32,000 nt of DNA from Vulcanisaeta distributa DSM 14429 (GTDB lineage: Archaea; Thermoproteota; Thermoprotei; Thermoproteales; Thermocladiaceae). Below the pieces are notes generated by a model. It searched no databases, was not told where the DNA came from, and saw only the letters and a program-made list of their open reading frames with translations. Each line of letters opens with the position of its first letter. Position 1 is the stretch's first letter. Positions 5,029-26,027 of this stretch are shown piece by piece. Both the position numbers and the translations under genes were made by a program. Where the stretch lies: assembly GCF_000148385.1 (NCBI RefSeq), contig NC_014537.1, forward strand, positions 1,950,001-1,982,000, in the 5' to 3' direction.

Positions 5029-5231
5029 CAGTCAAAAACTTGACTTTACGATATATAAATATTATTACACAACCTTGTACGTTAAACGGGAAATAATTTA
5101 ATAATTGTCCTGAAAATTATTGAATAATTTAATAATAATTGAATGTATTGATTAATAAATATTCATAAATAATTAGTAATTAAGAGAATTGAATATAAAT
5201 ATGAACAGCTATTTTTAGTTCTATGTAATGT

Positions 5232-7417: not shown

Positions 7418-7501
7418 TATTGTTTAGTCTCATAATTGCGAGATTTAAAATTAATTCCACGTGAAATAAGCATTTTTAATTTGACCATTGAGAAACCCTA
7501 G

Positions 7502-8173
7502 ATGATACCTGGAATTAGTATTGACATTGTACATTTAATGATTCTAAAATTAATACTTCATGCCATTCATGATAATATGAAAGATGCTGCGCCAAACCCA
7601 TTATGGTTGTCGTTAGCTGGGCACATTAGTAAGGCCACATTTTACAGGAAGGTCTCTGAGCTGGAGACTATGGGATTACTTGAGAGGATCAGTAGGAATA
7701 AGTACTTAATAAGCGTTAGCGGTTACTTAACGCTTCTTTTTGCGTATTTCATGCATATTGGCGACATAGACCAGGATACCGCCCAAGCTGCGATTAACGC
7801 CATTAGGGGTAATTGGGGTTTAGTGGGATTTAGTGATTATGAGATTGAGAGTTACGTAAAGTTGCTCTACCTGAGCAGTAAGGGGAGACTTAGTAGTGAG
7901 TTAGTGGCGCTTTATCAGGAGTATCCCAGGAACGTTTTCTTCATATTACCCGGCGATCTTAAGATGGTAACTGTGAATTCATTATATAAGGAGTTGGTTA
8001 ATGAGTATGGGGATCCGAATATTGTTAATAATGCTAGGAGGGTTATTGCCAAGGCATTGATTGAGTACTTCCCCACCACGGTCATAAATGGATGTAGGGC
8101 TGTGACATTCATGAGCAATGGCGAAGCTAAGGTATTAGCTATGCAGTGTAATAACGATTTCATACTTAATTAA
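7502..8173 (+). CDS. Winged-helix DNA-binding protein, divergent member of the regulator family found at 10241-11035 and 16995-17801
   Basis: 223-aa ORF. HTH-like segment ISKATFYRKVSELETMGLLERI, followed by YLISVSGYLTLLFAYF, which parallels YEVTVKGLLTCLAYKC and YVSTVKGLLVCLALNC in the other two. It lacks their CxxCxxxC cluster. Confidence 0.55.
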   Translation: MIPGISIDIVHLMILKLILHAIHDNMKDAAPNPLWLSLAGHISKATFYRKVSELETMGLLERISRNKYLISVSGYLTLLFAYFMHIGDIDQDTAQAAINAIRGNWGLVGFSDYEIESYVKLLYLSSKGRLSSELVALYQEYPRNVFFILPGDLKMVTVNSLYKELVNEYGDPNIVNNARRVIAKALIEYFPTTVINGCRAVTFMSNGEAKVLAMQCNNDFILN

Positions 8174-9548
8174 GTCTGTCGTTTAGCAATCTTCTAATGA
8201 TCTTACCAATCACATCATATGTGTCTGGATGAATGTGAAGGTAATGAGCATATGCATTGTTTATTTGGAACCCATCAAATCCGTTTACTCCTGCACCCCT
8301 TTCATACTTAATGGTGAAGTCGTAATTTCCATGCAGAACTAATGAGGAGTAATGGAATTCATGGCCCATTATTACAGTACCAACATCACCGATAATGGAG
8401 TTCCTGATTACCCTGGCCCTTGCGTAGCCGTACCAGACGGGCCTTTTATGCATTATCGTTATAGCGTCTATGGCACCCACCATTTCATACTCCTCATTAT
8501 TGTAGACTATCGAGTTCGTCAGGTACATTAAACCACCGCACTCAGCATATAGGTACTTCCCTGAATCTATGAATCTACGCACATCAGCCCTAAGCGCCCT
8601 ATTCCTCTCAAGGTATTCCCCATAAACCTCGGGGAAACCACCACCAATTAGCAATAAGTCTATATCGCCAAGTCCCTGATCAACCTCTGGGTCGATAAAC
8701 TTAATATTACTCGTGAAGGACTGTATCCGCTCTATCGTCTCTGGATAATAGAACGTGAACGCCCTCCCACCCAGTATGCCCACCCTCAATTCACTACTAA
8801 CAACCTTAAATGACTCAGGACCTACGTTATCCCTCACATCAAGAGGCTCTGAGTATTCCTTAGCCACCTTAATGACCTTATTAACATCTATGAAACTCGA
8901 CGCCTCATTAAATACGTTAATCAGGCGCTGCTTATTGATCTCCTCAGCATGTATCAAACCCAGGTGCCTGTACTGCATTATATCCTCAAGGTCATCACTC
9001 CTTGGTATATAACCAAGGAATTCCAAGCCCTCACTCTCCACAGCAATCCTCAACTTATCAACCTGTCTCTGCGTAGTATTAGTAATTATGGCACCCACGA
9101 TCTTCACCTCACGATCAAAATCCCTCAACCCCCTAATTATTGCCCTCACGGTCCTATTAATCCTCTCCCCATTAATGACTAGTACGACTGGTGCCCTGAG
9201 CAACTTAGCTATTTGGGCGGTGCTACCCGCCTCACTTATACCGTCAACACTGTCGTAAAGCCCCGAGACACCCTCAATAATTGCGATGTCAGAATTCAGG
9301 GAATACCTATAGAACCTTGTTACTACCTTATCACCCATCAGCATGTAGTCCAGGTTCCTACTCGGTGCATTCACAATTACTGAGTGGTAACTCGGATCTA
9401 TATAGTCAGGGCCAACCTTAAATAGGGATACCCTAAACCCCGCCTTAATTAAAGCGTAAGCCAGCGCCAGTGTTACTGTGGTCTTACCATTCTTACCCTT
9501 ATACGAAGACACAACGAGCCTAGGCACTGTCGTCTCCATACCTATCAC
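8166..9548 (-). CDS. cbiA: Cobyrinic acid a,c-diamide synthase family amidotransferase (CbiA/CobB); a DsrN-like siroheme amidase candidate in this context
   Basis: 460-aa ORF. N-terminal P-loop-like region SSYKGKNGKTTVTLALAYALIKAGFRVSLFKVGPDYIDPSYH, and a C-terminal glutamine-amidotransferase-like half with YAECGGLMYL and GHEFHYS. It overlaps the end of the upstream tetrapyrrole methylase gene. A likely start is at METTV (9539). Confidence 0.85.
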   Translation of the reverse strand: MIGMETTVPRLVVSSYKGKNGKTTVTLALAYALIKAGFRVSLFKVGPDYIDPSYHSVIVNAPSRNLDYMLMGDKVVTRFYRYSLNSDIAIIEGVSGLYDSVDGISEAGSTAQIAKLLRAPVVLVINGERINRTVRAIIRGLRDFDREVKIVGAIITNTTQRQVDKLRIAVESEGLEFLGYIPRSDDLEDIMQYRHLGLIHAEEINKQRLINVFNEASSFIDVNKVIKVAKEYSEPLDVRDNVGPESFKVVSSELRVGILGGRAFTFYYPETIERIQSFTSNIKFIDPEVDQGLGDIDLLLIGGGFPEVYGEYLERNRALRADVRRFIDSGKYLYAECGGLMYLTNSIVYNNEEYEMVGAIDAITIMHKRPVWYGYARARVIRNSIIGDVGTVIMGHEFHYSSLVLHGNYDFTIKYERGAGVNGFDGFQINNAYAHYLHIHPDTYDVIGKIIRRLLNDRLN

Positions 9549-10170
9549 GCCTTACTATGAAGATGAGTGATGGAGCCTTCACATCATCAATGTTAGAGCT
9601 ATTATTAAGTCTATGAAACTCCTCGTCTGGGTACGTAACCCTACTAACTATTAAAATCTCGTGATCATCATTTAATTTACTAATTAGCTCCTTAATCATC
9701 CTCGTGCCCATGAAGACTACCTTAACGTCGGCCTTAACATCATAGTCAATGTCCGGATACGCCATTAATGCAACCACACCCTTTAACTCAATCATGTACT
9801 TAGCTGCGGCTGCCGTAAAACTACTGACCCCCGGCACTATTTCGCAGGGAACGCCATTACGTAGGGCCTCCCTACAAATCTCAATACCCCTACCAAATAT
9901 TACTGGGTCACCATTCTTGAGGAAGACTACGTTAAGCCCTTTCCTGGCTAATTCTATCGCCTTAATTACATACTCCCTGTGCGCATCGCCTCTCACGTGT
10001 CCCATGAATACCTTCCTGGCATTTGGTGCGTATGTGTTTATTATCTCCTCATTAACCAATGAGCCGTAAAATACAACGTCAGCCTTACTTAAGATCTTAA
10101 TAGCCTTCACGGTAATAAGCTCGGGATCCCAAGGACCAGCACCAACAACGTAAATTGGGATAATAATCAC
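9520..10170 (-). CDS. cobA: Uroporphyrinogen-III C-methyltransferase-like tetrapyrrole methylase (precorrin-2/siroheme branch)
   Basis: 216-aa ORF with a GTG start. Motifs are IYVVGAGPWDPELITVKAIKILSKADVVFYGSLV, LKNGDPVIFGRG and IVPGVSSFTAAAA, typical of SAM-dependent tetrapyrrole methylases. The SUMT assignment over other family members rests on context. Confidence 0.7.
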   Translation of the reverse strand: MIIIPIYVVGAGPWDPELITVKAIKILSKADVVFYGSLVNEEIINTYAPNARKVFMGHVRGDAHREYVIKAIELARKGLNVVFLKNGDPVIFGRGIEICREALRNGVPCEIVPGVSSFTAAAAKYMIELKGVVALMAYPDIDYDVKADVKVVFMGTRMIKELISKLNDDHEILIVSRVTYPDEEFHRLNNSSNIDDVKAPSLIFIVRRDRYGDDSA

Positions 10171-10240
10171 CCATTACTTAACTTAGTTAGTTTATGGTAA
10201 TTAAATAATGGTTATTACACATAGCATGTAAAATTTCAGG

Positions 10241-11035
10241 CTATTCTAAAATACTACTGTTGTTCCTTAGTTTTTTAATTTCATGTAATAAAACACAATC
10301 ATGGTAGTTAACTGAGAATTGCATACCTATGCATGACTTCCCACAAAGCGTGCACATGTAAACATAGGCATTACCATCAAGGCCTATGCTAATCACGAAT
10401 TTATCATTACCAATTAGGATTGATGATTTCGTAATTATACCACCATCAATAATCAGCCTACTAATTAAATAATGCATTGCCATGTTAATCACATCGTTAA
10501 GTAAGTCGTACCTAACTAATGACTTTAATTGATCCCTATGCTCAAGTATCATCATCATGACCGTCTTAGGGTCATCAATCATCCTCATGATGCCACTATC
10601 AATGCTCATTAGTGCAGGTAAAACACTTATTATTTTCATGATCCTTTGGCAACAATAGCTCCTTAGGTGCCATTTTTGGCATAGTTTGCTAAAGATAATG
10701 CTTTCATCATCAACGCAATTAAGCGCTAAGCACACGAGTAAACCCTTAACTGTTGATACATATATACCCCTTTCACTATTGGTATCACTAATATTCAACG
10801 GCCTTATTAATCCATACTGAAGCATCCTCTTAGCCTTCTTATACACTGTTGAGATGGCAAACCTCGTATTCTTAGAAATCCTGTATAATGTTATTGGTTC
10901 ATTATAAATAATATAAGCCAATAATTCCCTGGTGGTATCGTCAATGTCCATCTCAGTCAAGAGCCGTTGTCGTAATAATCGAATAGTAATGCCATGATCA
11001 TTAATTGCGGATTTACTCATTAACATAGCATTCAT
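10241..11035 (-). CDS. Putative transcriptional regulator: N-terminal winged helix plus C-terminal Cys cluster (paralog 1)
   Basis: 264-aa ORF. HTH-like LLAYIIYNEPITLYRISKNTRFAISTVYKKAKRMLQYGLI. C-terminal YVYMCTLCGKSC(x11)C, i.e. CxxCxxxC plus a further Cys/His. Full-length similarity to ORF 16995-17801. Confidence 0.65.
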   Translation of the reverse strand: MNAMLMSKSAINDHGITIRLLRQRLLTEMDIDDTTRELLAYIIYNEPITLYRISKNTRFAISTVYKKAKRMLQYGLIRPLNISDTNSERGIYVSTVKGLLVCLALNCVDDESIIFSKLCQKWHLRSYCCQRIMKIISVLPALMSIDSGIMRMIDDPKTVMMMILEHRDQLKSLVRYDLLNDVINMAMHYLISRLIIDGGIITKSSILIGNDKFVISIGLDGNAYVYMCTLCGKSCIGMQFSVNYHDCVLLHEIKKLRNNSSILE

Positions 11036-11074
11036 CAGCTATGTATATATTCAGTTGAATAAATATTGTTTGAT

Positions 11075-11093
11075 TAGTGCATAAAGTGCATTG
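11075..11093 (-). promoter_or_regulatory. Candidate operator upstream of regulator paralog 1
   Basis: The plus-strand TAGTGCATAAAGTGCATTG matches TAGTGCAAAAATTGCATGG at 17822-17840 in 16 of 19 positions. On the coding (minus) strand it lies 8-9 nt upstream of an AT-rich TATA-like box (AATATTTATT). Confidence 0.4.
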
Positions 11094-11124
11094 AGTAACA
11101 TCCCTTATAAATAAATGTATTTAT

Positions 11125-11706
11125 CTAATGATTCTCCTTGGTACTTAGTATGCATGTCATTACGTCTATAGTAACATTAACATTATCACTAAATGAATTG
11201 TTCACCTCAACTAAGTAAATACCTGGGTCAAACCTTTGGGACCACACCACATTATTCACGTCAAAGTAACCAACGAGTATTACATCCTCTGCGTAGTACG
11301 CATTGTCACTTATGGGTTCACCAACCCTCTTTATTAATAGGGTTACGTTACCCAATAGCGTTGTTACAGTAATTAGTGAAATGCCTATGAAGTCCCTGGG
11401 TATCATTATTGGGCAGTAAATAGACTCATGCCTACGTAATTGAAACCCAACTAACCTACATGAGCTAACCATTGATAGGAATTGCCTAATATTCTCCATA
11501 CTCAATGTAGCGAATGGAACCTCAGAAAGGACTTGGGCAATTAACTTAGCAATTTCCCTGGCTTGACTTAATGGTACATGCCTCCTCCTTAACTCATTTA
11601 TACACATCCTCACCTTATCAATCTGCTCATTAGTAACATTAATACCTCGACTCCTAAACTCATCCCTTAATGTCCTAATAACCTCCTCCTCGTAATTACG
11701 AAACAT
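11125..11706 (-). CDS. Hypothetical protein (orf193)
   Basis: 193-aa ORF between the sat operon and regulator paralog 1. It has a helical-looking N-half and a beta-rich-looking C-half (GIYLVEVNNSFSDNVNVTIDV). No recognisable motif. Confidence 0.5.
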   Translation of the reverse strand: MFRNYEEEVIRTLRDEFRSRGINVTNEQIDKVRMCINELRRRHVPLSQAREIAKLIAQVLSEVPFATLSMENIRQFLSMVSSCRLVGFQLRRHESIYCPIMIPRDFIGISLITVTTLLGNVTLLIKRVGEPISDNAYYAEDVILVGYFDVNNVVWSQRFDPGIYLVEVNNSFSDNVNVTIDVMTCILSTKENH

Positions 11707-11765
11707 GATTAAGACCTCAATGAAGAAATATCTCTAGGATTTTAATAAAACCAAGACATTACTCC

Positions 11766-12143
11766 TCACTTCTCTTCGGGCAATGTGGGCGGTGGTAAGT
11801 ACTCCTCCTCCTTGGCAGCTAACTCCTTAATCTTGCTAAGCCTCTCCGGCTTCAATATCTCATCAAAGACCTCCCTACCAATACTCCTTAATTGGGCAAT
11901 AACCTCAAAGAGCTCCCTCTTAAAGGCCACCGGCGTTTCCTCAATGAAGCCCCTGGCATCAATCCTAGCCCTTGGAAACTCCTTTAGGATCCTCTGGGCA
12001 ACGTCGTCAGGAACCTCAAGCTCAATTACCTTAAGGTAACCGCCATATAGATCCTTAATAAACTTCTCCAATGGAGTACCTCTTATCCTCTCGAGTCTCG
12101 TCTTATCTAGTATTACGGAGATCTTGTAGGGCATGCTCATCAC
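11766..12143 (-). CDS. Small charged protein of unknown function, translationally coupled to sat (orf125)
   Basis: 125-aa ORF. Possible starts are GTG 12143, ATG 12140 and ATG 12134, all overlapping or abutting the sat TGA within AAAGAGGTGATGAGCATG (SD-like GAGGTGA). Acidic C-terminus EEEYLPPPTLPEEK. A T-tract (GGTTTTATT on the minus strand) follows the stop. Confidence 0.6.
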   Translation of the reverse strand: MMSMPYKISVILDKTRLERIRGTPLEKFIKDLYGGYLKVIELEVPDDVAQRILKEFPRARIDARGFIEETPVAFKRELFEVIAQLRSIGREVFDEILKPERLSKIKELAAKEEEYLPPPTLPEEK

Positions 12144-13525
12144 CTCTTTAACGGCACCTCCATTGGTGGTACATCAACCTCAAGCTCCCTCTCTTTTAAC
12201 TCGAGGTACTTCTTATTAACGAATGGGTAGCCATAGACCCTCCACCACCTGACAATGACCCTATAGACCTCAGGCCTAAAGATTATTGGCGGTGGCTCTA
12301 TGCCCTCGGCTATCAACCCCCTAATGAAGCTACCACTAAATCTCTGGGCTACATCTGTATGGGCGCACGTGTCGCTATAGGCTATTTCACCGCACTTCGG
12401 GCAGTACCAAAACTCCTTAATGTTAACAGGCCTTATCTTAAGGCCTTTATCTAGGTCATAAGGCGGGGCATTAAGGCCATAACTAGGTAGGCCCCTCTCC
12501 CAGAGTATTTGCGTTGCATATGGATCATAATAGTCGCCCACGGCAGCGTGATCCCTACCAAACATGTGGTGTGTACAACCCATGTTCTGCCTAATGATGC
12601 CGTGCAGTAACGACTCGAGTGGGTTACCATACCTCATGTCCCACAGCGTGAAGGTGACCATGTGCCTCTTCGGGCTTATGTAGCCGTACTTATTCAATGC
12701 CTCGTGACCCTCGAGGATTGCCTCATCGACGAAGTCCCCAAGCCTCTTTGCACCGATTATGGCGTTGACGAGTATTCCATGGCACGGCTCAATATCACCC
12801 AGGTATGCCGCATTCTTCATTAGGTGCTCATGACCGGTGTGCGGCACATTCCTAGTCTGGTGGGCGATCACCGTCCTCCAGCCCCTCCTTTGAATCTCCT
12901 CGCGGGATTTAGCCGGTGGGTACCAGAACCTATTGTATGGCTCCTTAAACACCGGCTCGTTAATCACGTACACCTTACCTGCCAACGCTGTGCCAGTCAT
13001 ACTTCTATATATCAACCAGCCAGGGTGCTTCTCATCAAACCTCTTCTTAACAACCTCTGGATTCCTCTCCGGCGTTCCAAACGTCCTATCGGCCAAGTCC
13101 TTGGGATCGAACCTCCAAATCTCCTCAACATCAAGTATTGCAAACGGTTGTCCCTTGAGCCTAAGCAATAACCTATCGCCCTCCTTAATACCAAGCTTCC
13201 TCAGGTCATCCTCACTGATGTCAAATATTATTGGGAATGGGAATAACCAACCATCGAGGAGTCTCCTCTCCTTAAGTACATTCTCAACCTCATTCCTAGT
13301 CATGAACCTATCCAGCGGGCTGAAGAAGCCATAGGCGATGGACATGATCTCCCTATACACATTCCTAATGGGTAAGCCGCTAATCGGATCCCTGGTTGCC
13401 CTTATGTCGTATGGTATTGCGCCGGCGGCCATGTTAATGACCTTATCCCTATCCCTAATCACCGCATCCACAAGCTTCCCTCCGTGTGGGGGTGGCATGT
13501 AGACCTTAAGACTCATGTGGACCAC
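12140..13525 (-). CDS. sat: Sulfate adenylyltransferase (ATP sulfurylase)
   Basis: 461-aa ORF. Motifs are QTRNVPHTGHEHLMK (HxxH) and GRDHAAVG. The Zn-ribbon-like CPKCGEIAYSDTCAH resembles sites described in thermophilic ATP sulfurylases. Directly downstream of aprA (1-nt gap). An SD-supported alternative start is ATG 13516. Confidence 0.93.
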   Translation of the reverse strand: MVHMSLKVYMPPPHGGKLVDAVIRDRDKVINMAAGAIPYDIRATRDPISGLPIRNVYREIMSIAYGFFSPLDRFMTRNEVENVLKERRLLDGWLFPFPIIFDISEDDLRKLGIKEGDRLLLRLKGQPFAILDVEEIWRFDPKDLADRTFGTPERNPEVVKKRFDEKHPGWLIYRSMTGTALAGKVYVINEPVFKEPYNRFWYPPAKSREEIQRRGWRTVIAHQTRNVPHTGHEHLMKNAAYLGDIEPCHGILVNAIIGAKRLGDFVDEAILEGHEALNKYGYISPKRHMVTFTLWDMRYGNPLESLLHGIIRQNMGCTHHMFGRDHAAVGDYYDPYATQILWERGLPSYGLNAPPYDLDKGLKIRPVNIKEFWYCPKCGEIAYSDTCAHTDVAQRFSGSFIRGLIAEGIEPPPIIFRPEVYRVIVRWWRVYGYPFVNKKYLELKERELEVDVPPMEVPLKR

Positions 13526-13526
13526 C

Positions 13527-15431
13527 TCATGGGAACTCTATTATGTGTATCACGGGCACCTTCCATAACTCCCACTGACCGGTTTTCGCATCATACCTTG
13601 AATTGACGAATACGTGCCAATTCTCATCATCCAGTGCCGGGTAATCCGCCCTAACGTAATAGCCAGGCCACCTAGTCTCCTTCCTAAACAGCATGTGCCT
13701 AACCACGGCCTCCGCAGTCAATATCCTGTGCCACAGCTCCCAAACTCTCATTAATTCATGCCAGTCCTGGGCAGCTGCGTAATTCATGAAGTCCTCCTTA
13801 AGGAACTGCAGTAGTTCCAGCGCCCTGTTGAGCATCCACTCGTTGGTCACGTACATTGTTGACCAACCACCGGCGTACTCATCCATGATCTTCTGAAGCC
13901 TGAACAGGCCCTGCTTCCAGTACATCTTAGTTGGGTCTATTGGATGCATGTAGCTCGGCCCAGTGACAACGTTATACCTACCCTTCTGGTAACGCTCCAG
14001 TGGCTCCATTATCTTGGCTATTAACGAATCAACCTGAGCTCTATCCACCTCAACCTTCTCATCGCTGTGATCCATCACGTATAGTACGGCGGACTTACCC
14101 GCCAACCTACCCTCAGTGAATGAACCACTACTGAACTTGTGCGGATTGGCGCCGCAGGCATCACCTGCACAGAATAAACCATCTAGGGTGGTCATCCTAT
14201 TATAGCCCCAGAAGTACTGGTACCTCCTGTCGTCTGGCAAGCCCTCAATCTTCTTAGGCGCTAAGTCCTCAGGTCCGCTGGCCCATGCACCGCACTCGGT
14301 GGCGTGGCTACCCATCACGTAGGGCTCCGTGGTAATTATCTCATAGGGCCTATCGGCTGGCTCGTGGTTTTGCCCAGCCCATATGACTACCTGGCTTATT
14401 GTCATGTCTAGGAAGTCCTCATAGGCTATCGCCTCGCTTTCAGTACCCTTCTTAACCGTCTCATCAGTCCTCATGAGGCTTGGCCCACGGCCAGCCAACC
14501 ACTCAAGGCGTTGGGCAAATACCCTAAGTGTTGTTGGTGTAATTGGCAAATCAACGTAGTTACCCTTACCGCTATACAGCTTCCTTATCTCATCGACATG
14601 GGGCTTCCAGAAGTCCTGCCCATAGGCATTGCTAATCCTCGTCTTAAGCAATAACTGATAAGCACCAACAGGTCCATAGCCATCCTTAAACCTTGGGACT
14701 ACAAATCTGGCCTCCATCATGGTCATTACGGCGCCGGCCTCGATTAACATGCCGTAGGATGAGGCGGAGGACCATGGTGGGTACCAACTCCTGCCAAGTC
14801 CCTCACCCTGAGACCTAGGCCTATATATCTGTGAACCACCACCTGCGGAGAGTATTACCGCCTTTGCCCTGAATACGTAGAATGTCCCATCATTTACGTT
14901 AAAGCCTACGGCACCAACGACCCTATTGGGATTACTCGGGCTCTTAAGTAGGTGCGTGACCATTACCCTATTGAATATATTCTCGTCACCAAGGGCCTTC
15001 CTGGCTGCCTCAGCTACTATTGGTTTATAGGACTCCCCATGAATCATTATCTGCCACTTACCTTCCCTAACATAGCACCCAGTCTTTGGCTCGGGCCATA
15101 TTGGTAATCCCCACTCATCAAATAAGTGGACTGTTGAGTCGACATGCCTCGCGTAGTCGTAGACCAAGTCCTCCCTAACAATACCCATTAAGTCACCCCT
15201 CACGTACTTAACGTAGTCCTCCACAGTATTCTCCTTGCACTTTAGACCCATGTACGTGTTAATTGCCGATAGCCCCATCGCCACCGCCCCACTCCTGTTT
15301 ATATTCGCCTTCTCCGCCAGCACAATCCTGCAGTTCCTACACCAATACCTCGTCTCCCAGGCAGCCCCACTACCAGCCATTCCGCCACCAATTATTAGTA
15401 TGTCCGCATCTACGTACCTAACCCTAACCAT
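13527..15431 (-). CDS. aprA: Adenylylsulfate (APS) reductase alpha subunit, FAD flavoprotein
   Basis: 634-aa ORF. N-terminal FAD fold DILIIGGGMAGSGAAWE. Fumarate-reductase-like flavoprotein length. 4-nt gap after aprB, with GGGGGTGA SD-like sequence upstream. Confidence 0.94.
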   Translation of the reverse strand: MVRVRYVDADILIIGGGMAGSGAAWETRYWCRNCRIVLAEKANINRSGAVAMGLSAINTYMGLKCKENTVEDYVKYVRGDLMGIVREDLVYDYARHVDSTVHLFDEWGLPIWPEPKTGCYVREGKWQIMIHGESYKPIVAEAARKALGDENIFNRVMVTHLLKSPSNPNRVVGAVGFNVNDGTFYVFRAKAVILSAGGGSQIYRPRSQGEGLGRSWYPPWSSASSYGMLIEAGAVMTMMEARFVVPRFKDGYGPVGAYQLLLKTRISNAYGQDFWKPHVDEIRKLYSGKGNYVDLPITPTTLRVFAQRLEWLAGRGPSLMRTDETVKKGTESEAIAYEDFLDMTISQVVIWAGQNHEPADRPYEIITTEPYVMGSHATECGAWASGPEDLAPKKIEGLPDDRRYQYFWGYNRMTTLDGLFCAGDACGANPHKFSSGSFTEGRLAGKSAVLYVMDHSDEKVEVDRAQVDSLIAKIMEPLERYQKGRYNVVTGPSYMHPIDPTKMYWKQGLFRLQKIMDEYAGGWSTMYVTNEWMLNRALELLQFLKEDFMNYAAAQDWHELMRVWELWHRILTAEAVVRHMLFRKETRWPGYYVRADYPALDDENWHVFVNSRYDAKTGQWELWKVPVIHIIEFP

Positions 15432-15435
15432 GCTC

Positions 15436-15927
15436 TCACCCCCTCACCTCAGCCTTAACAACCTCTGGAACCTTCGTTCTGGGTAGTTCAACGCCGAGCT
15501 TATTACCGCCAAGCTTCTCATGCTCGCAGGATAGGTACGGCGTCCTCAGGAATTCCCTAGGTGGCTCCGGGTATTCCTGCGGTGGCTTTATTGAACCCCA
15601 GGGCGTGGTCCTTATTGGAAATACGAAGTACTTAACCGTGCCATTCCTATACCTAATTGTCCAGTAAACCCTGTTAGTCTTCTCATCCCTGTAAACCTCA
15701 ACGGCACCACCAAGTGGTGTGAAGTCCATGTAGCCCCTTATCTGGACAGCGCCCTGTGGGCAGTGCTTAACGCAGTTGTAGCACTCCCAGCAGGACTCCG
15801 GCTCCGCGTTGTATGCCTTCCTACCGAATATGCCGGACTTCGTGAACCTCATTATGTGACTTGGGCATATGTTAACGCAGTCCCCGCATCCCGTGCACTT
15901 GGCCGGGATTACATAGGAGGGCATGCC
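15436..15927 (-). CDS. aprB: Adenylylsulfate (APS) reductase beta subunit, 2x[4Fe-4S]
   Basis: Ferredoxin motifs CTGCGDCVNICP and CWECYNCVKHCP. I place the start at ATG 15927 (MPSYVIPAKC...), preceded by GGTGGTGGGC and 7 nt after the upstream stop. The track start at 16011 would overlap the upstream gene. Confidence 0.92.
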   Translation of the reverse strand, partial: GMPSYVIPAKCTGCGDCVNICPSHIMRFTKSGIFGRKAYNAEPESCWECYNCVKHCPQGAVQIRGYMDFTPLGGAVEVYRDEKTNRVYWTIRYRNGTVKYFVFPIRTTPWGSIKPPQEYPEPPREFLRTPYLSCEHEKLGGNKLGVELPRTKVPEVVKAEVRG

Positions 15928-15934
15928 CACCACC

Positions 15935-16801
15935 TCATGAGTGCTTCTTTGGGTGACTTGGTACGTGGGACTCAAGCGCCCTCTCAGCCAACTCACCACT
16001 CCACGGGCCAAGTAGCCTAGGCTCTACGCCCTTCCAGGTCCTATACCTATCGTATAACTGCCATATATACATATAAATCGCATGTCCAAACTTCGTCCAA
16101 GGCATTGTGGCGAACATCATGGCCACTAGGAATATGTGGACAGTGAATGCCGTTGCCAATGCGTAGTAATTCAGCGGCATTGTTAATTCAATACCCATTA
16201 GGGCAAAGCCACTCAGTGAGACGAAGAAGGCCGTCCAGAGGAAGAAGTCCGTAACCGCAGGTTCACCGACTGGCCTAGTCCCCTGCCACCTGGCGATCAT
16301 CATGAGTATAAACCCAACAATTATCAAAACACCACCAACGGCGCCGGTGCCTATGACGGCGTATGGACCCATGGGGCCGAGCTTACCACCAGGTATGAAA
16401 GCCACGAGACCAGGTACGTCGCTTGGGACCCACTCATCGTAAATGAAGCCCAGGACTGTTGATATTGCCGCAAACACAAAACCCCACCAAACCAATGCAT
16501 GCGCCACCGCCTTAACCCTGGGCCTCCTTAGGTAAATTGACTGAGTGTGGCATGAGGTCATTGGCGCGCCGTAGAATGGGTATAGAAATGCCGTGATTAA
16601 GCCAGCAATAAAGGCGCCTGCGGAGCCCCAATTCCTCGTTGGACCCTTTATCGGCAGTACCCTGCTTAAGTTTGAAAGGGCTAGCACGCCCCTGCCTATC
16701 TCAATTGCGAAGCCGATAACCATCTCTATAACTAGCGCTATGGCTCCGTAAATTATCCATAGGTGCGGTATTGGTAGGTATAGTTCGATCATCAACCTCA
16801 T
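15935..16801 (-). CDS. Polytopic membrane protein, NarI/DsrM/HdrE-like (cytochrome-b-like), first gene of the apr-sat operon
   Basis: 288-aa ORF with about 6 hydrophobic helices. The last helix, TVHIFLVAMMFATMPWTKFGHAIY, shares H-x17-H spacing and the PWxK..H motif with the DsrM ORF (LAHVILAMIFIAYFPWGKMMHLF). 7-nt gap to aprB. Confidence 0.7.
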   Translation of the reverse strand: MRLMIELYLPIPHLWIIYGAIALVIEMVIGFAIEIGRGVLALSNLSRVLPIKGPTRNWGSAGAFIAGLITAFLYPFYGAPMTSCHTQSIYLRRPRVKAVAHALVWWGFVFAAISTVLGFIYDEWVPSDVPGLVAFIPGGKLGPMGPYAVIGTGAVGGVLIIVGFILMMIARWQGTRPVGEPAVTDFFLWTAFFVSLSGFALMGIELTMPLNYYALATAFTVHIFLVAMMFATMPWTKFGHAIYMYIWQLYDRYRTWKGVEPRLLGPWSGELAERALESHVPSHPKKHS

Positions 16802-16994
16802 ATTACTTTAGTTAAAAAATTATTTATTCCACATAGATTGTGAAAGCTTATATTATGCATGTAAATTATTATATATAATAATGAATATGAATGAATATAA
16901 TATTAATTCTTTATTAACACGAATAAATAATTATATTATGCCAATTTTTCTTATAAATATTAGTAATTTTTCTAAGATAAAACATAAATAATGA
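16802..16994 (-). promoter_or_regulatory. AT-rich promoter region of the membrane gene-aprBA-sat operon
   Basis: 193-nt AT-rich spacer. On the minus strand GGAATAAATAATTTTTTAAC ends about 15 nt before the ATG at 16801, a TATA-like box compatible with a short or absent leader. Confidence 0.4.
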
Positions 16995-17801
16995 TTATTT
17001 TACCAGATTTGATATATCTCTATTTAACTCATTAATTAGCGGGCAATGTTCATCACAGGTTGTGTATGTTAATACGCAATTCTTTTCACATAATCTGCAT
17101 ATATAGACATAAAGCATTTTGCTGTTTCTATAATACCCCACCAGGAATGAGTTGTTGCCAAGTATTATGTCAGGTCTTTTAACGTTGGATGAATTGCTCA
17201 ATATATTATTAACTAAATAGTAGATTGAGGTATTTTTAATGCTGGTGACTGTTGACTCGTCAATGAGTTTACCGCTTATCGATGAGTTGTTAATTAACGT
17301 GCTTAATGCCGTTATCATTAGCGTATCTATATTCTCAATTATTCTCAAACTCTCACCTCTGACTATGTGAGGTAGTATTGTGAGTATTGTTATTAGTTTA
17401 CCATTATCGTAATTCCTCAGATTCCACCTTGCCTTAAGTCTACTTAGCACTATATCATCGTCAAGGCACTTATATGCTAGGCACGTTAGTAATCCCTTAA
17501 CTGTGACTTCATAAACGCGCTTGCCATTAAGCCTATCACTTGATTCCCTGGCAAGTATTAGGTTATTCTTTACCATGTACTTAGCCTTCTTATAAATGGA
17601 TGATATGCTATATGGCGTTTCCCTAGAAACCCTGTATAGTGTAACCGGCCCCTTCATTATTATGTATGCGAGTATGTCGTTCATTACATTATCGTACTCA
17701 ACATTTACGAGCCTTCTAAGTTCTAACCTCAAACTCTCTGGGACCAGGTTACCATAATTAATGATGGCATCATGCCTCATTGAGTATATACGTATATTCA
17801 T
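16995..17801 (-). CDS. Putative transcriptional regulator: N-terminal winged helix plus C-terminal Cys cluster (paralog 2)
   Basis: 268-aa ORF. HTH-like ILAYIIMKGPVTLYRVSRETPYSISSIYKKAKYMVKNNLI. C-terminal YVYICRLCEKNCVLTYTTCDEHC, i.e. CxxCxxxCx6Cx3C. The true start may be the internal Met at 17780, given TTTTATAA at 17807-17814. Confidence 0.65.
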   Translation of the reverse strand: MNIRIYSMRHDAIINYGNLVPESLRLELRRLVNVEYDNVMNDILAYIIMKGPVTLYRVSRETPYSISSIYKKAKYMVKNNLILARESSDRLNGKRVYEVTVKGLLTCLAYKCLDDDIVLSRLKARWNLRNYDNGKLITILTILPHIVRGESLRIIENIDTLMITALSTLINNSSISGKLIDESTVTSIKNTSIYYLVNNILSNSSNVKRPDIILGNNSFLVGYYRNSKMLYVYICRLCEKNCVLTYTTCDEHCPLINELNRDISNLVK

Positions 17802-17821
17802 TTGTTATAAAACCAGTTGCC

Positions 17822-17840
17822 TAGTGCAAAAATTGCATGG
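17822..17840 (-). promoter_or_regulatory. Candidate operator upstream of regulator paralog 2
   Basis: TAGTGCAAAAATTGCATGG contains the perfect palindrome TGCAA-AAA-TTGCA. It matches site 11075-11093 in 16 of 19 positions and has the same position relative to a TATA-like box (TTTTATAA, 9 nt downstream on the minus strand). Confidence 0.4.
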
Positions 17841-17876
17841 CACATTGATAAAATGTAAATGATTGTTTTTCCAGTG

Positions 17877-17881
17877 AAAAA
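17877..17881 (-). terminator. Oligo-T tract after dsrK
   Basis: A minus-strand T5 (in ATCTTTTTCAC) lies about 25 nt after the dsrK stop. Archaeal termination commonly uses T-tracts. Confidence 0.3.
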
Positions 17882-17904
17882 GATTAATTATTATTTAAAT
17901 GAAT

Positions 17905-19314: not shown

Positions 19315-20126
19315 CCTGGTATTGACTTAACCCTAATCTTAATTGATGGCCTAGCCACCGTGGGCGATATGTATATGAATGAGAATAGGTGCATCATCTT
19401 GCCCCACGGGAAGTAGGCTATGAATATCATGGCTAGTATTACGTGGGCTAACGTGATCGGCGGCGCAGCCATAATGTAGCTAATTGCCTTATCCACATTG
19501 AATGATGCTAGGTTCCAAATCCAGGGAGCGACTGAATACTCGAAGAATCCAGGCTCAACAGACTCAAGCCATAAAGTTTGTATAAGACCTAATAATATTA
19601 TTAATAGGAGTAGTGCATCCGCGAAGTAATCATCGAGGTAACTGAGACTTCTCATTGGCAGTTTAACAACGAAGTTGCCAACCTTAACGCTCCTATCAAT
19701 TAACCTCCTACCAATGAGGATCAACATTCCAACCAATGCCATAACACCGCCTAAGCCACCGATAACCTTAGCCAATAACACATGCATTGTAGGTGAAATG
19801 CCCATGGCCCCGAGCTGCGCAGGCGGTATTAATAGGCCGAGGTGGCCCACGAGGGCTATCCAAATACCCCAGTGAAAGAGTACTGAGCCCACGAACAGTG
19901 CCGTGTCAGTGCCCGGCAACGTATAGAATAGGAATATCCTCTTGAGTATCTCAATCGTTATTTTACCATAGGAATCATCGTTCACTGTCGCATTAACGTT
20001 ATAAAGCCCCGTCAATGCCTTCGGCATTAACCACCTGACTAGCCTAAATATTATCCCAACTATGAATATTACAACGGCGATGTACGGTACATACCCAAAC
20101 ACGATTAGGTATGCGTAATTCATCAC
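19311..20126 (-). CDS. dsrM: DsrM/NarI-type di-heme cytochrome b membrane subunit
   Basis: 271-aa ORF with about 5-6 TM helices. His pairs have NarI spacing: FHWGIWIALVGH (H-x9-H) and AHVILAMIFIAYFPWGKMMH (H-x17-H). Paired with the downstream dsrK-like gene. Confidence 0.85.
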   Translation of the reverse strand: MMNYAYLIVFGYVPYIAVVIFIVGIIFRLVRWLMPKALTGLYNVNATVNDDSYGKITIEILKRIFLFYTLPGTDTALFVGSVLFHWGIWIALVGHLGLLIPPAQLGAMGISPTMHVLLAKVIGGLGGVMALVGMLILIGRRLIDRSVKVGNFVVKLPMRSLSYLDDYFADALLLLIILLGLIQTLWLESVEPGFFEYSVAPWIWNLASFNVDKAISYIMAAPPITLAHVILAMIFIAYFPWGKMMHLFSFIYISPTVARPSIKIRVKSIPG

Positions 20127-20264
20127 TGTTCATACTATGGTTGAGCCATAAATAATAAATGCTGTTACACGTATGACGTGAATGACAGAATAAGGCACCA
20201 TATGGTACATACCGCGGCTTGATGTAGAATAAAGTAATATAAGGAATTAGCACATTATTTCTTA
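20127..20264. promoter_or_regulatory. Divergent promoter region between the dsrMK arm and the orf171-SQR-dsrAB arm
   Basis: ATAAATAATAAAT (20150-20162) lies about 25-35 nt upstream of the dsrM ATG. AATAAAGTAATATAAGG (20228-20244) lies about 20-36 nt upstream of the orf171 ATG. Confidence 0.4.
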
Positions 20265-20780
20265 ATGAGTATTGGCGATAAGGTCGCTGAGTTAATAAGG
20301 AAGGCCCGCGATGCAGGTTTTCTCGAGTTTTACGAAATTAACGAATTAGTAAGAAGCATAATTGAGAGCTCCGGCGAGGTTAATGCAATACTTTACAGGC
20401 CTGGTGAGATGCCCATACTCGTGAATGCGGCTAAGGAGGATGATTATGTATCGATTGCACTATTGGATTTGAATCTTGCAGAGGAGATGAGTGCTAAAGA
20501 CGTGCCGCAACTCATTAATGGGTTTAGGGATCTTGAGGACATAACCACCCGGATAGGCTTTGAACTTTACGGAAACAGGTCAATAGCGCCCTTCCTATAC
20601 CCATTATACTTAGATGAGACTAGTAGTGTTGTCCTTGTGATCTTGGGCATAAAGTCTGCCGTAAGTAGCCAATTATTTAATGAAAACTTTATTGAGGGAT
20701 TGATCGAGGATTTAAGATTCAATTCAGATGCATATCTATTCCGCATAATTGACGCACTTAGGGTTTCACCTAATAAGTGA
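20265..20780 (+). CDS. Hypothetical protein (orf171)
   Basis: 171-aa ORF, first gene of the plus arm, 39 nt upstream of the SQR-like gene. No motif recognised. Confidence 0.5.
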   Translation: MSIGDKVAELIRKARDAGFLEFYEINELVRSIIESSGEVNAILYRPGEMPILVNAAKEDDYVSIALLDLNLAEEMSAKDVPQLINGFRDLEDITTRIGFELYGNRSIAPFLYPLYLDETSSVVLVILGIKSAVSSQLFNENFIEGLIEDLRFNSDAYLFRIIDALRVSPNK

Positions 20781-20819
20781 AATAACCTGTAAATTCATTA
20801 TCTTAAATTACCTCGCTTA

Positions 20820-22490: not shown

Positions 22491-22521
22491 TAATGCCCAA
22501 TCACCTTAATGCCCGTATCAC
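22491..22521 (+). promoter_or_regulatory. Tandem direct repeat upstream of dsrA (TAATGCCCAATCAC / TAATGCCCGTATCAC)
   Basis: Two near-identical 14-15-nt units start 16 nt apart (22491 and 22507). They lie 49-79 nt upstream of the dsrA ATG and just upstream of the T/A-rich stretch CTTTTCAAAAATC (22533-22545). Confidence 0.35.
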
Positions 22522-22569
22522 GTGGAATAACCCTTTTCAAAAATCATAGGTTATGAATAACGATAACGC

Positions 22570-25945: not shown

Positions 25946-26027
25946 AAAGAACTTATGCAGCGTAGTTACACATATCACGTGAAACAACCTTTTTACAACA
26001 TAACACGTTAATGGGCTTGGTGATAAC

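What the first reader, a model, noticed from the sequence alone, without database searches (positions are those of the whole stretch)
10241..17801. Paralogous wHTH regulators with a C-terminal CxxCxxxC cluster bracket the apr-sat operon
ORFs 10241-11035 (264 aa) and 16995-17801 (268 aa) are similar along their full length. Examples are LLAYIIYNEPITLYRISKNTRFAISTVYKKAKRM vs ILAYIIMKGPVTLYRVSRETPYSISSIYKKAKYM, and VKGLLVCLALNCVDDE vs VKGLLTCLAYKCLDDD. Both end in YVY(M/I)CxLCxKxC followed by further Cys/His. Each sits immediately upstream, on the same strand, of a functional module: paralog 2 before the membrane gene-aprBA-sat operon, paralog 1 before cobA-cbiA. A winged helix joined to a Cys cluster suggests a metal-, Fe-S- or redox/sulfide-sensing regulator dedicated to sulfate respiration. 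I do not recognise this architecture as a named family.
Basis: partly seen in the sequence, partly recalled or inferred. Interest (0 to 1): 0.72.

Follow-up and report, generated by a model that had tools for sequence, protein, structure and literature searches.

The report
Cysteine-rich regulators of archaeal sulfate reduction
Two related, unnamed DNA-binding proteins with a four-cysteine metal-binding tail sit inside the sulfate-respiration gene island of the hot-spring archaeon Vulcanisaeta distributa, belong to a tiny family found almost only next to such sulfur genes, and each carries a conserved palindrome in its own promoter, so they are the best candidates yet for the switches that control this ancient pathway in archaea.

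Summary
ORFs 10241-11035 (REG1, = Vdis_2085) and 16995-17801 (REG2), both on the minus strand, are paralogs (33% identity over 240 aa, E 7e-43). They bracket memb-aprBA-sat; REG1 precedes cobA and a CbiA/DsrN-type amidase. Both have an N-terminal winged helix (sub-threshold Pfam hits; the AlphaFold model matches MarR-type folds), then a helical domain and a C-terminal beta domain with no Pfam, PDB-sequence or Foldseek match. Four C-terminal Cys are invariant in 36 diverse relatives; a C-x4-C pair after the wing is nearly so. The family is tiny: 50 hits among 1.84 billion representatives, the named ones Vulcanisaeta, Pyrobaculum, Thermoproteus and one Nitrososphaerota MAG. Of the 10 diverged gene contexts I looked up, 8 lie inside dsr/apr/siroheme clusters. 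New here: a 13-bp palindrome TGCA-N5-TGCA occurs only twice in the window, about 49 bp upstream of each REG start, and recurs before 11 of 13 orthologs (predicted autoregulatory operator). A second box, ACRT-N3-AYGTG-N-AATAA, marks eight sulfur promoters. ORF 7502-8173 is a third, cluster-less paralog. Fe-S versus Zn versus thiol sensing, and which protein binds which box, remain untested.

The parts
16995..17801 (-). REG2. Winged-helix plus helical domain plus C-terminal Cys4 domain, 268 aa as ORF; likely true start is Met8 at 17780. Invariant Cys: C107, C112, C235, C238, C242, C253 (nt 17043-17099 for the C-terminal cluster).
10241..11035 (-). REG1 (= Vdis_2085), 264 aa, paralog of REG2. Cys at 102, 107, 228, 231, 235, 247 correspond to the family-invariant positions. 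Three clade-specific Cys at 119, 128, 129.
7502..8173 (+). Third, degenerate paralog (HTH7502), 223 aa. Same wHTH plus helical core, ends at the position of the first cluster Cys and lacks the CxxC..C..C motif. Syntenic in all Vulcanisaeta loci examined.
   Evidence: hhalign to the Pyrobaculum-type subfamily: prob 98.2%, E 2.9e-14
17825..17837 (.). Motif A, palindrome TGCAAAAATTGCA, just upstream of the BRE/TATA of REG2 and centred about -49 from the predicted transcription start. Predicted REG operator.
11078..11090 (.). Motif A, TGCATAAAGTGCA, same geometry (about -49) in the REG1 promoter.
16824..16833 (-). Motif B (TGTGGAATAA) in the promoter of the membrane gene-aprBA-sat operon.
10212..10229 (-). 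Motif B, extended form ACATGCTATGTGTAATAA, in the cobA-dsrN promoter.
22521..22530 (+). Motif B (CGTGGAATAA) in the dsrAB promoter.
20162..20179 (-). Motif B variant ACGTCATACGTGTAACAG in the divergent dsrMK / 20265 promoter region.
7460..7469 (+). Motif B (CGTGAAATAA) in the promoter of the third paralog.
20777..20785 (+). Motif B (GTGAAATAA) upstream of the Pyr_redox_2 / DUF1641 gene pair.
25970..25987 (+). Motif B variant ACATATCACGTGAAACAA in the dsrC promoter.
5062..5071 (-). Motif B (TGTGTAATAA) upstream of the TauE/SafE-DUF1634 transporter gene 3607-5028.
11125..16801 (-). Module downstream of REG2: membrane protein, aprB, aprA, sat, DUF6955, hypothetical.
8166..10170 (-). Module downstream of REG1: uroporphyrinogen-III methyltransferase (cobA) and a CbiA/DsrN-type tetrapyrrole a,c-diamide synthase (siroheme branch).
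   Evidence: role of DsrN from PMC10504309
17905..20126 (-). dsrM and dsrK, immediately upstream of REG2.

Best explanation
REG1 and REG2 are paralogous DNA-binding transcription factors of a very small, essentially Thermoproteales-restricted family that travels with Dsr-type sulfur-respiration genes. Each has a winged helix with a near-invariant recognition helix (S-x2-YKKAK-x-M), a helical middle domain, and a small C-terminal beta domain. In that last domain four invariant cysteines (C-x2-C-x3-C-x6-14-C) most likely ligate a metal centre. My preferred reading is a cubane Fe-S cluster, because three ligands lie within 8 residues plus one distal. A Cys4 Zn site is the alternative. Each gene has its own promoter for a near-leaderless mRNA. 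A 13-bp palindrome TGCA-N5-TGCA sits directly upstream of BRE/TATA, centred near -49. I propose that REG dimers bind this palindrome and auto- and cross-regulate. That position is the one typically used by archaeal activators. I further propose that occupancy depends on the state of the cysteine centre (cluster loss or oxidation, or persulfide/disulfide chemistry at the conserved C-x4-C pair behind the wing). This would couple redox, Fe-S or sulfur status to expression of the adjacent apr-sat and cobA-dsrN modules, either by read-through from the REG promoters or together with the third paralog acting at the second box (motif B) shared by eight sulfur promoters. Shown: paralogy, wHTH fold, Cys invariance, narrow taxonomic range, gene-neighbourhood linkage, and conservation and position of both DNA boxes. 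Inferred: DNA binding to motif A, metal identity, the signal sensed, and the sign of regulation.
For: Paralogy: E 7e-43. wHTH: sub-threshold F-93_WHD, HTH_24 and TrmB hits; some orthologs carry precomputed PF22194 hits; the AF2 model (pLDDT 79, pTM 0.74) has canonical wHTH topology and matches MarR-family structures with probability 1.0. Cys: C235, C238, C242 and C253 are invariant in 36 of 36 relatives down to about 25% identity, even where the spacing changes to C-x2-C-x5-C-x4/5-C; C107 is kept in 34 of 36 and C112 in 32 of 36. Narrow family: 17 and 20 hits among 5.8 billion clusters and 50 hits among 1.84 billion representatives; every named member is Vulcanisaeta, Pyrobaculum or Thermoproteus, plus one Nitrososphaerota MAG. 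Context: in Vulcanisaeta, dsrMK-REG2-memb-aprBA-sat...REG1-cobA-cbiA; in strain AZ3, dsrMK-REG-cobA-cbiA; in an uncultured Thermoproteaceae, REG-cobA-cbiA. In P. calidifontis the gene lies between two dsrAB-like pairs with DsrE/TusA/DsrC/CbiA/cobA. In a Pyrobaculum genome assembly (same 90% cluster as the P. arsenaticum protein) it lies next to DsrC-DsrM and near aprBA. Thermoproteus, next to DsrC. Other members follow dsrMK-like pairs with DsrE, lie within dsrABC-dsrN/cobA/aprB, or sit next to divergent dsrAB-like genes. Motif A: exactly 2 matches in 32 kb, both in the REG promoters. It precedes 11 of 13 REG genes in 10 Vulcanisaeta/Thermoproteaceae loci. The invariant columns of a 7-promoter alignment cluster in it (8 of 11), while the flanks are largely divergent. 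No degenerate copies occur in other promoters. Both copies have the same geometry relative to TATA and the start codon. Motif B: 8 matches versus 1.9 expected; the extended form gives 8 versus 1.0. It lies 20-40 nt upstream of sulfur-gene starts in the window and in orthologous loci, and is absent from about 10 non-sulfur promoters.
Against: There is no experimental or direct computational evidence of DNA binding or of metal binding. Motif A occurs only at the REG promoters in this window, so by itself it explains autoregulation and not control of apr, sat or dsr. The structural operons share a different box (motif B), and it is also in the promoter of the third paralog, which could be its binder. 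Promoters of closely related species are not independent samples. One family member (P0040) has no adjacent sulfur genes and one (P0066) sits by a molybdopterin oxidoreductase. All wHTH profile hits are below the curated thresholds.
Confidence: 0.6

Rival explanations
1. Same transcription factor, different sensor. The four C-terminal cysteines hold a purely structural Zn (a thermostabilising knuckle or dimerisation module). Any signal is read elsewhere: a thiol/persulfide switch at the C-x4-C pair directly behind the wing (as in SurR, or SqrR/BigR-type sensors), or a small ligand in the helical middle domain.
For: Cys4 Zn sites are common structural elements in hyperthermophile DNA-binding proteins (general knowledge). 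In the model the first two Cys lie at the end of a beta strand and the following turn, and the last Cys lies just before the final helix, a knuckle-plus-helix layout compatible with Zn. The C107/C112 pair is kept in 32-34 of 36 relatives and lies next to the DNA-reading head. The third paralog works without the cluster motif.
Against: Three ligands packed within 8 residues plus one distal, with variable distal spacing, resembles Fe-S motifs more than the usual two CxxC pairs of Zn ribbons. Sulfolobus TFE-beta, also a winged helix plus C-terminal Cys4 domain, uses C-x2-C-x5-C-x10-C for a [4Fe-4S] cluster (PMC4495717). The four Cys are more strictly conserved than the C-x4-C pair, which the P. 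calidifontis protein lacks entirely and two further Pyrobaculum-type members keep only in part (C112 lost).
Confidence: 0.35
2. The third paralog (7502-8173), not REG1/REG2, is the master regulator of the sulfur regulon. It binds motif B at its own promoter and at the TauE, cobA, apr, dsrMK, Pyr_redox_2, dsrAB and dsrC promoters. REG1/REG2 only autoregulate through motif A, or modulate the system indirectly (for example by heterodimerising through the shared helical domain and adding a redox input).
For: Motif B is in the promoter of 7502-8173 itself and in all the structural promoters, whereas motif A is only at the REG promoters. Its recognition helix differs (FYRKVSELE versus YKKAKxM). Both this subfamily and extended motif B were found only in Vulcanisaeta. 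It is homologous to the cluster-bearing family, so heterodimers are conceivable.
Against: This rests on co-occurrence only. No homolog of 7502-8173 lies within the fetched AZ3 locus (20.7 kb of a 33-kb contig), which nevertheless carries motif B; a copy elsewhere in that genome is not excluded. Loci outside Vulcanisaeta keep REG-type genes in dsr clusters without this paralog. Nothing excludes that REG proteins also read motif B.
Confidence: 0.3
3. Not transcription factors. The winged helix is used for protein contacts, as in DsrD, the winged-helix allosteric activator of DsrAB that Crenarchaeota lack. On this reading the Cys-rich proteins act as enzyme activators or as cofactor (siroheme/Fe-S) delivery factors for DsrAB or AprBA.
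For: DsrD was long mistaken for a DNA-binding regulator, is a DsrAB activator, and is absent from archaea with early-branching DsrAB (PMC8794893). The REG genes lie next to cobA/dsrN cofactor genes.
Against: No similarity to DsrD (no PF08679 hit at E up to 1). The recognition helix is rich in Lys/Arg and near-invariant. A conserved palindrome sits at a fixed promoter position before the gene, even in a locus with no adjacent sulfur genes: L010 has TGCAATTTATTACA. Short relatives in Thermoproteus tenax are annotated by NCBI as MarR/TrmB regulators.
Confidence: 0.06

Closest known systems
MarR / TrmB / F-93-type winged-helix regulators
   Same: The N-terminal about 80 residues fold as a three-helix, two-strand winged helix. 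The best structural matches are MarR-family repressors (MexR, MarR, ST1710), and the best profile hits are F-93_WHD, HTH_24 and TrmB.
   Different: All profile scores are below the curated cut-offs. Foldseek E is only about 2e-3, with TM about 0.5 on the target and 0.28 on the query. The remaining about 170 residues (helical domain plus Cys4 beta domain) match nothing.
SurR of Thermococcales (sulfur-responsive redox-switch regulator)
   Same: An archaeal winged-helix regulator that ties sulfur and redox status to respiratory gene expression through cysteines (reviewed in PMC7289023 and PMC12162507, listed; mechanism details are from my own knowledge).
   Different: In SurR the CxxC lies inside the N-terminal HTH and forms a disulfide. 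Here there is a C-x4-C behind the wing plus a separate Cys4 domain. No sequence match to any PDB chain except a weak MarR hit. Different phylum and different target genes.
Archaeal TFE-beta / human RPC39 (winged helix plus C-terminal [4Fe-4S] domain)
   Same: Domain logic and ligand spacing. Sulfolobus TFE-beta uses C92, C95, C101 and C112, i.e. C-x2-C-x5-C-x10-C, for a cubane cluster (PMC4495717). Here the pattern is C-x2-C-x3-C-x10-C, or C-x2-C-x5-C-x4/5-C in the Pyrobaculum-type members.
   Different: No detectable sequence or fold similarity. TFE-beta is a general initiation factor without the 100-residue helical insert. These proteins are accessory, clade-restricted and cluster-linked.
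Rrf2-family Fe-S regulators (IscR, NsrR, RsrR) and ArsR-type persulfide sensors (SqrR, BigR)
   Same: The general design: a small winged-helix dimer whose DNA binding is set by a Cys-ligated Fe-S cluster or by Cys-Cys (poly)sulfide bridges (my own knowledge).
   Different: No Pfam or NCBIfam hit to Rrf2, HTH_5 or HTH_20 at E up to 1. Different Cys spacing and number, much longer protein, archaeal.
ARA box of Sulfolobus (upstream activating sequence just 5' of BRE)
   Same: Motifs A and B both lie immediately upstream of BRE/TATA, at about -38 to -55, and are (semi)palindromic. This is the position used by regulon-specific archaeal activator sites (my own knowledge).
   Different: Different sequence and different organisms. 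The binder here is unknown.

Membership tests
MarR family (Pfam PF01047/PF12802) | Profile match above the gathering score | tested here: not met
   No MarR model listed at E up to 1 for either protein. The PDB profile search gives one MarR chain at E 1.2.
MarR family (Pfam PF01047/PF12802) | Winged-helix core flanked by N- and C-terminal dimerisation helices, about 140-aa fold | tested here: inconclusive
   Foldseek aligns about 115-150 columns to MarR structures with probability 1.0, but E is 2e-3 to 2e-2 and rmsd is above 10 A. Only the wHTH core is clearly shared.
TrmB family (PF01978) | Profile match above the gathering score (25.6 bits) | tested here: not met
   12.6 and 12.8 bits for REG1 and REG2; 23 bits for the third paralog.
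F-93 winged-helix domain (PF22194) | Profile match above the gathering score (28 bits) | tested here: not met
   20.6 and 19.8 bits. Four orthologs carry a precomputed PF22194 hit, so a distant relationship of the wHTH alone is plausible.
Rrf2 / IscR-type Fe-S regulators | Rrf2 profile match and three closely spaced C-terminal Cys about 90-110 residues from the N-terminus | tested here: not met
   No Rrf2 hit in Pfam or NCBIfam. The Cys cluster is about 130 residues after the wing, with different spacing.
SurR | CxxC within the N-terminal HTH; two ArsR-like wHTH domains | tested here: not met
   No Cys within residues 1-100 of either protein. A single wHTH in the model. No PDB sequence match.
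TFE-beta / RPC39 | Homology of the WH and FeS domains to RPC39 | tested here: not met
   No PDB hit with the full-length or the C-terminal profile. Foldseek with the 169-aa C-terminal model gives a best E of 1.1.
TFE-beta / RPC39 | Four conserved C-terminal Cys binding a [4Fe-4S] cluster | not testable with these tools
   Four invariant Cys with similar spacing are present. Cluster binding needs spectroscopy.
DsrD (PF08679) | Profile match; about 80-aa single winged helix encoded after dsrB | tested here: not met
   No hit. The proteins are 264-268 aa and are not adjacent to dsrB.
New family proposed here (Thermoproteales Dsr-cluster Cys4 winged-helix proteins) | wHTH with S-x2-Y(K/R)K recognition helix, GLL-x-C-x4-C after the wing, helical domain, C-terminal C-x2-C-x3/5-C-xn-C | tested here: met
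   Both window proteins carry all of these features. The third paralog meets only the first and third.

The most novel reading that the evidence does not exclude
A previously unrecognised transcription-factor superfamily forms the dedicated regulatory circuit of the early-branching archaeal Dsr/Apr system. Two paralogs would carry a redox-labile Fe-S cluster in a domain of new fold and act through the TGCA-N5-TGCA operator. A cluster-less third paralog would act through the ACRT-N3-AYGTG-N-AATAA box on the eight sulfur promoters that carry motif B. Together they would switch sulfate/sulfite respiration and siroheme-amide synthesis on under reducing, iron-sulfur-replete conditions.
Probability: 0.3. 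Interest if true: 0.72.

Novelty: new variant of a known kind. Interest (0 to 1): 0.57.

Why it matters
I could not find any described transcriptional regulator of dissimilatory sulfate or sulfite reduction in Crenarchaeota. The comparative Dsr paper I searched (PMC10504309) mentions none for these clusters, and DsrD, once suspected as a regulator, turned out to be an enzyme activator that these archaea lack. This finding gives three named candidate genes, two precise candidate operators with coordinates, and a defined set of target promoters in cultivable organisms (V. distributa, V. moutnovskia, Pyrobaculum). The question becomes directly testable by EMSA, DAP-seq and metal analysis. If the Cys4 domain binds an Fe-S cluster, it would also add a new sensor fold to the short list of archaeal redox-sensing transcription factors. 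The family's distribution could then serve as a marker for archaeal-type Dsr clusters in metagenomes.

Tried and rejected
1. Named-family assignment. Pfam, NCBIfam and PHROGs scans of both proteins, and Pfam scans of 25 isolated C-terminal domains, gave only sub-threshold wHTH hits.

2. Solved-structure relatives. The full-length profile and the C-terminal profile found nothing meaningful.

4. I first dismissed ORF 7502-8173 as unrelated (BLASTP E 8; no hit with the A1 HMM). I reversed this after profile-profile comparison with the Pyrobaculum-type subfamily.

5. Is motif B just the generic Vulcanisaeta promoter? About 10 non-sulfur promoters in the window lack it and have ordinary TTTAAA/TTATAA boxes. 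However, the AATAA part sits at the BRE position and may be generic.

6. Degenerate motif A copies in structural promoters: none (37 matches versus 29 expected, all intragenic or random).

7. Extended motif B in Pyrobaculum/Thermoproteus loci: not found in promoters there.

8. Literature. No paper mentions Vdis_2085 or its neighbours. The Vulcanisaeta moutnovskia sulfate-reduction paper (PMID 32807893) is not held.

9. The split REG2 ORFs in L004 and L005 are not pseudogenes of interest. All long genes in those draft assemblies are split in the same way.

Full report
WHAT IS THERE.

The window is from Vulcanisaeta distributa DSM 14429: the product of 10241-11035 is 100% identical to Vdis_2085. 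On the minus strand the order is dsrM (19311-20126), dsrK (17905-19314), REG2 (16995-17801), a 288-aa membrane protein, aprB, aprA, sat, a DUF6955 protein, a 193-aa hypothetical, REG1 (10241-11035), a uroporphyrinogen-III methyltransferase (cobA, 9520-10170) and a CbiA-type a,c-diamide synthase (8166-9548). In Dsr organisms this last protein corresponds to the siroheme amidase DsrN (PMC10504309). On the plus strand lie a 171-aa hypothetical, a Pyr_redox_2/DUF1641 pair, dsrA, dsrB, a 308-aa hypothetical and dsrC. Three TauE/SafE transporter genes lie at 1507-5028. The whole 26-kb stretch is therefore a sulfate-reduction island.

CHECK OF THE OBSERVATION.

REG1 and REG2 align over about 240 residues at 33% identity, E 7e-43. 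Both end in YVY(M/I)C-x-LC-x-K-x-C, and a fourth cysteine follows 10-11 residues later. REG2 probably starts at Met8: its orthologs begin there, and a TATA-like box lies 29 nt upstream of that codon.

ANATOMY OF THE PROTEINS.

- Pfam gives only sub-threshold winged-helix hits: F-93_WHD at 20.6 and 19.8 bits against a cut-off of 28, plus HTH_24 and TrmB. NCBIfam and PHROGs give nothing useful.
- An AlphaFold2 model built on a 29-sequence alignment (pLDDT 79, pTM 0.74) shows three parts: a canonical wHTH (helices 38-50, 55-61, 66-78; strands 82-86, 95-99), an all-helical middle domain (101-202), and a four-stranded beta unit plus a final helix (212-267).
- Foldseek against the PDB matches only the wHTH, mainly to MarR-family proteins, at E about 2e-3. 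BFVD gives the same picture.
- A separate model of residues 100-268 (pLDDT 77) has no PDB neighbour; the best E is 1.1.
- Profiles of the full family and of the C-terminal 60 residues find nothing in PDB sequences or Pfam.

CONSERVATION.

- In 29 close relatives the invariant residues include the recognition-helix positions (S67, Y70, K71, A73, M76) and six cysteines: C107 and C112 in the motif VKGLL-x-C-LA-x2-C-x-DD just behind the wing, and C235, C238, C242 and C253.
- In a wider set of 36 sequences reaching Pyrobaculum, the four C-terminal Cys are still invariant, although the spacing shifts to C-x2-C-G-x4-C-x4/5-C. C107 is kept in 34 and C112 in 32.
- The REG1 clade has three further conserved Cys (KLC...YCC).
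- Strict conservation of four Cys through changing spacing is what is expected of metal ligands.
- The pattern (three ligands within 8-9 residues plus one distal) is closer to Fe-S motifs than to the two CxxC pairs of Zn ribbons. It resembles the C-x2-C-x5-C-x10-C that binds a [4Fe-4S] cluster in Sulfolobus TFE-beta, which is likewise a winged helix plus C-terminal Cys domain (PMC4495717). I found no homology to TFE-beta/RPC39, so this is an analogy only.

HOW WIDE IS THE FAMILY, AND WHERE DOES IT SIT?

- Word-seeded searches of 5.8 billion clusters returned 17 and 20 proteins.
- An exhaustive HMM search of 1.84 billion representatives returned 50 at E <= 1e-3, of which 14 at E <= 1e-30.
- Every named member is from Vulcanisaeta, Pyrobaculum or Thermoproteus, plus one Nitrososphaerota MAG. 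Names are 'hypothetical protein' or generic ArsR/MarR/TrmB labels.

Synteny:
- V. distributa, JCM 14467, JCM 16159 and UBA163 share the window's order.
- Vulcanisaeta sp. AZ3 has dsrMK-REG-cobA-cbiA with no apr-sat insert.
- An uncultured Thermoproteaceae has REG-cobA-cbiA.
- KMA_Bin30 has sat-DUF6955-hyp-REG-memb-aprB and, on another contig, REG-cobA-cbiA.
- V. thermophila has dsrMK-REG-memb-aprBA-sat. It has a second member after a dsrMK-like pair, flanked by DsrE, TusA and rhodaneses (similar).
- In P. calidifontis the gene lies between two dsrAB-like pairs, with DsrE, TusA, DsrC, CbiA and cobA.
- In a Pyrobaculum genome assembly whose protein falls in the same 90% cluster as the P. arsenaticum protein, it lies beside DsrC/DsrM and near aprBA. 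In Thermoproteus it lies beside DsrC.
- Another lineage has dsrMK/dsrAB-dsrC-cbiA-REG-cobA-aprB, and another sits beside divergent dsrAB-like genes, DsrC and a DsrK-like protein.
- Exceptions: one member lies next to a molybdopterin oxidoreductase, and the Nitrososphaerota member has no adjacent sulfur genes.

A neighbour-joining tree puts the apr-linked (REG2) and cobA-linked (REG1) proteins in sister clades inside Vulcanisaeta. AZ3 falls in the REG1 clade. The V. thermophila and Thermoproteaceae proteins fall outside both clades. The most conserved partnership is therefore REG with cobA-dsrN beside dsrMK. The second copy arose within Vulcanisaeta, in association with the apr-sat block.

A THIRD PARALOG.

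ORF 7502-8173 (223 aa, plus strand, convergent with cbiA) is syntenic in all Vulcanisaeta loci examined. It looked unrelated by BLASTP and by the family HMM. However, it matches the Pyrobaculum-type members pairwise (E 4e-6 and 2e-3). Its 10-sequence profile aligns to that subfamily over 155 columns with hhalign probability 98.2%, E 2.9e-14, and more weakly to the REG alignment (70%, E 4e-5). It ends exactly at the first cluster cysteine (AMQC) and lacks the rest. I found it only in Vulcanisaeta.

CIS ELEMENTS.

I compared about 130 nt upstream of each gene in the window and in orthologous loci.

Motif A:
- It is a palindrome TGCA-N5-TGCA, extended as ATGCA-wTTTw-TGCAC-T.
- It occurs exactly twice in the 32-kb window, at 17825-17837 and 11078-11090, in the REG2 and REG1 promoters (0.49 expected).
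- With 5-6 nt spacing it precedes 11 of 13 REG genes in ten loci, and the other two have near-matches.
- In an alignment of seven diverged promoters, 8 of the 11 invariant columns lie in it.
- No relaxed copies lie in other promoters.
- In both paralogs it ends about 12 nt upstream of a TATA-like box. The centre of that box lies 27-29 nt before the start codon, which implies near-leaderless mRNAs and an operator centre near -49.
- The Nitrososphaerota member, which has the same recognition helix, has TGCAATTTATTACA upstream of its gene.
- Because REG1 and REG2 share an almost identical recognition helix and near-identical palindromes, the simplest reading is auto- and cross-regulation by REG dimers.

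Motif B:
- It reads (TT-n-C)ACRT-N3-(C)AYGTG-N-AATAA and is followed after 3-5 nt by a T/A-rich TATA-like box.
- It lies 20-40 nt upstream of the starts of TauE3607, the third paralog, cobA, the membrane-aprBA operon, dsrMK, the Pyr_redox_2 gene, dsrA and dsrC, in the window and in orthologous loci.
- The 9-mer occurs 8 times against 1.9 expected. The 12-mer core occurs 8 times against 1.0 expected.
- About ten non-sulfur promoters in the window lack it.
- It was not seen in Pyrobaculum or Thermoproteus promoters.
- The AATAA part sits where BRE is expected and may be generic. The CAYGTG part is the specific element.

MECHANISM.

Most likely (confidence about 0.6), REG1 and REG2 are operator-binding transcription factors whose activity is set by a Cys-ligated metal centre, and they belong functionally to the Dsr/Apr/siroheme regulon. 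Sites directly upstream of BRE are typical of archaeal activators (my own knowledge), so positive autoregulation is a reasonable guess.

Three things are not established:
- whether the Cys4 site is Fe-S or Zn;
- what is sensed (oxygen or redox, Fe-S status, or reactive sulfur at the C-x4-C pair);
- how REG occupancy reaches the structural genes.

For the third point the options are read-through from the REG promoters into the downstream operons, direct binding of motif B, or cooperation with the third paralog. That paralog carries motif B in its own promoter and is therefore an equally good candidate for the motif B binder. A non-regulatory, DsrD-like role is unlikely: there is no similarity to DsrD, the recognition helix is basic and invariant, and the palindromes are conserved. 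I keep it as a minor rival because DsrD, a winged-helix protein once assumed to be a regulator, is an allosteric activator of DsrAB and is missing from Crenarchaeota (PMC8794893).

COMPARISON WITH WHAT IS KNOWN.

The proteins work like winged-helix sensors such as SurR, Rrf2/IscR or SqrR/BigR, and share domain logic with TFE-beta. They fail every membership test I could run for MarR, TrmB, F-93, Rrf2, SurR, TFE-beta/RPC39 and DsrD. I therefore file them as a new variant of a known kind: a winged-helix regulator family with an unrecognised helical-plus-Cys4 module, specific to Thermoproteales Dsr clusters.

VERDICT.

Interest is moderate to good (0.57). The finding is not a surprise in kind, but it supplies concrete, testable regulators and operators for archaeal dissimilatory sulfur metabolism, for which I found none described.

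Noticed in passing
window 7502-8173 (+): A 223-aa protein convergent with cbiA is a third, remote paralog of the REG family that has lost the C-terminal Cys cluster. It carries the regulon box (motif B) in its own promoter.
   Followed up: yes
window 17865-17882: A 16-18 bp palindrome CTTTTTC-ACTG-GAAAAAC lies between the dsrK stop and the REG2 operator. The stem is conserved while the 4-5 nt centre varies in L001, L002, L004 and L005. It may be a dsrMK terminator hairpin or a further protein site.
   Followed up: partly
window 11049-11060: A perfect palindrome ATTCAACTGAAT lies between the TATA-like box and the REG1 start codon. It is conserved in REG1-type promoters and in the V. thermophila apr-linked gene. 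It is the only perfect copy in the window and sits in a repressor-type position.
   Followed up: partly
window 1507-5028 (-): Three tandem TauE/SafE-family transporter genes, the last fused to DUF1634, with motif B at 5062-5071. They are candidate sulfate/sulfite carriers of the regulon.
   Followed up: partly
window 20820-22441 (+); also L011, L013, L022: A Pyr_redox_2 flavoprotein (weak FCSD/SQR-like hits in orthologs) plus a DUF1641 protein is conserved beside dsrAB in Vulcanisaeta, Pyrobaculum and Thermoproteus, and has motif B. In JCM 14467 and JCM 16159 this pair is replaced by a second, divergent dsrMK-like pair (25-29% identity).
   Followed up: no
window 15935-16801 (-) and 11766-12143 (-): A 288-aa polytopic membrane protein with no Pfam hit always precedes aprBA and may be a membrane anchor replacing Qmo. 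A DUF6955 protein always follows sat. The listed aprB ORF overlaps the membrane gene by 77 nt, and its true start is probably Met29.
   Followed up: no
window 10001-11000 and 17001-18000 versus 12001-16000: The REG genes have about 35% G+C, against 50-52% for aprBA/sat. aprBA/sat/dsrAB are 88-98% identical between Vulcanisaeta species, while the REG proteins are 69-80% identical.
   Followed up: no
L007 (Vulcanisaeta sp. AZ3) 13080-13092: A perfect motif A copy (TGCAAAAATTGCA) lies 57 nt upstream of a CoA-transferase gene just after cbiA. It is a possible additional REG target or a chance match. The REG promoter of AZ3 itself has a variant with wider spacing.
   Followed up: partly
window 8212-8223: A palindromic extended motif B copy (ACACATCATATGTGT) lies inside the overlapping 3' ends of cbiA and ORF 7502-8173.
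   Followed up: no
window 31550-31999 (-): An AsnC-type protein with a weak siroheme-decarboxylase (NirDL/AhbAB-like) HTH hit at the window edge may be relevant to the siroheme/heme branch.
   Followed up: no
L004, L005 (JCM 16159, JCM 11216 drafts): REG2 and most long genes are split by frameshifts in these draft assemblies. These look like sequencing errors, not pseudogenes.
   Followed up: partly
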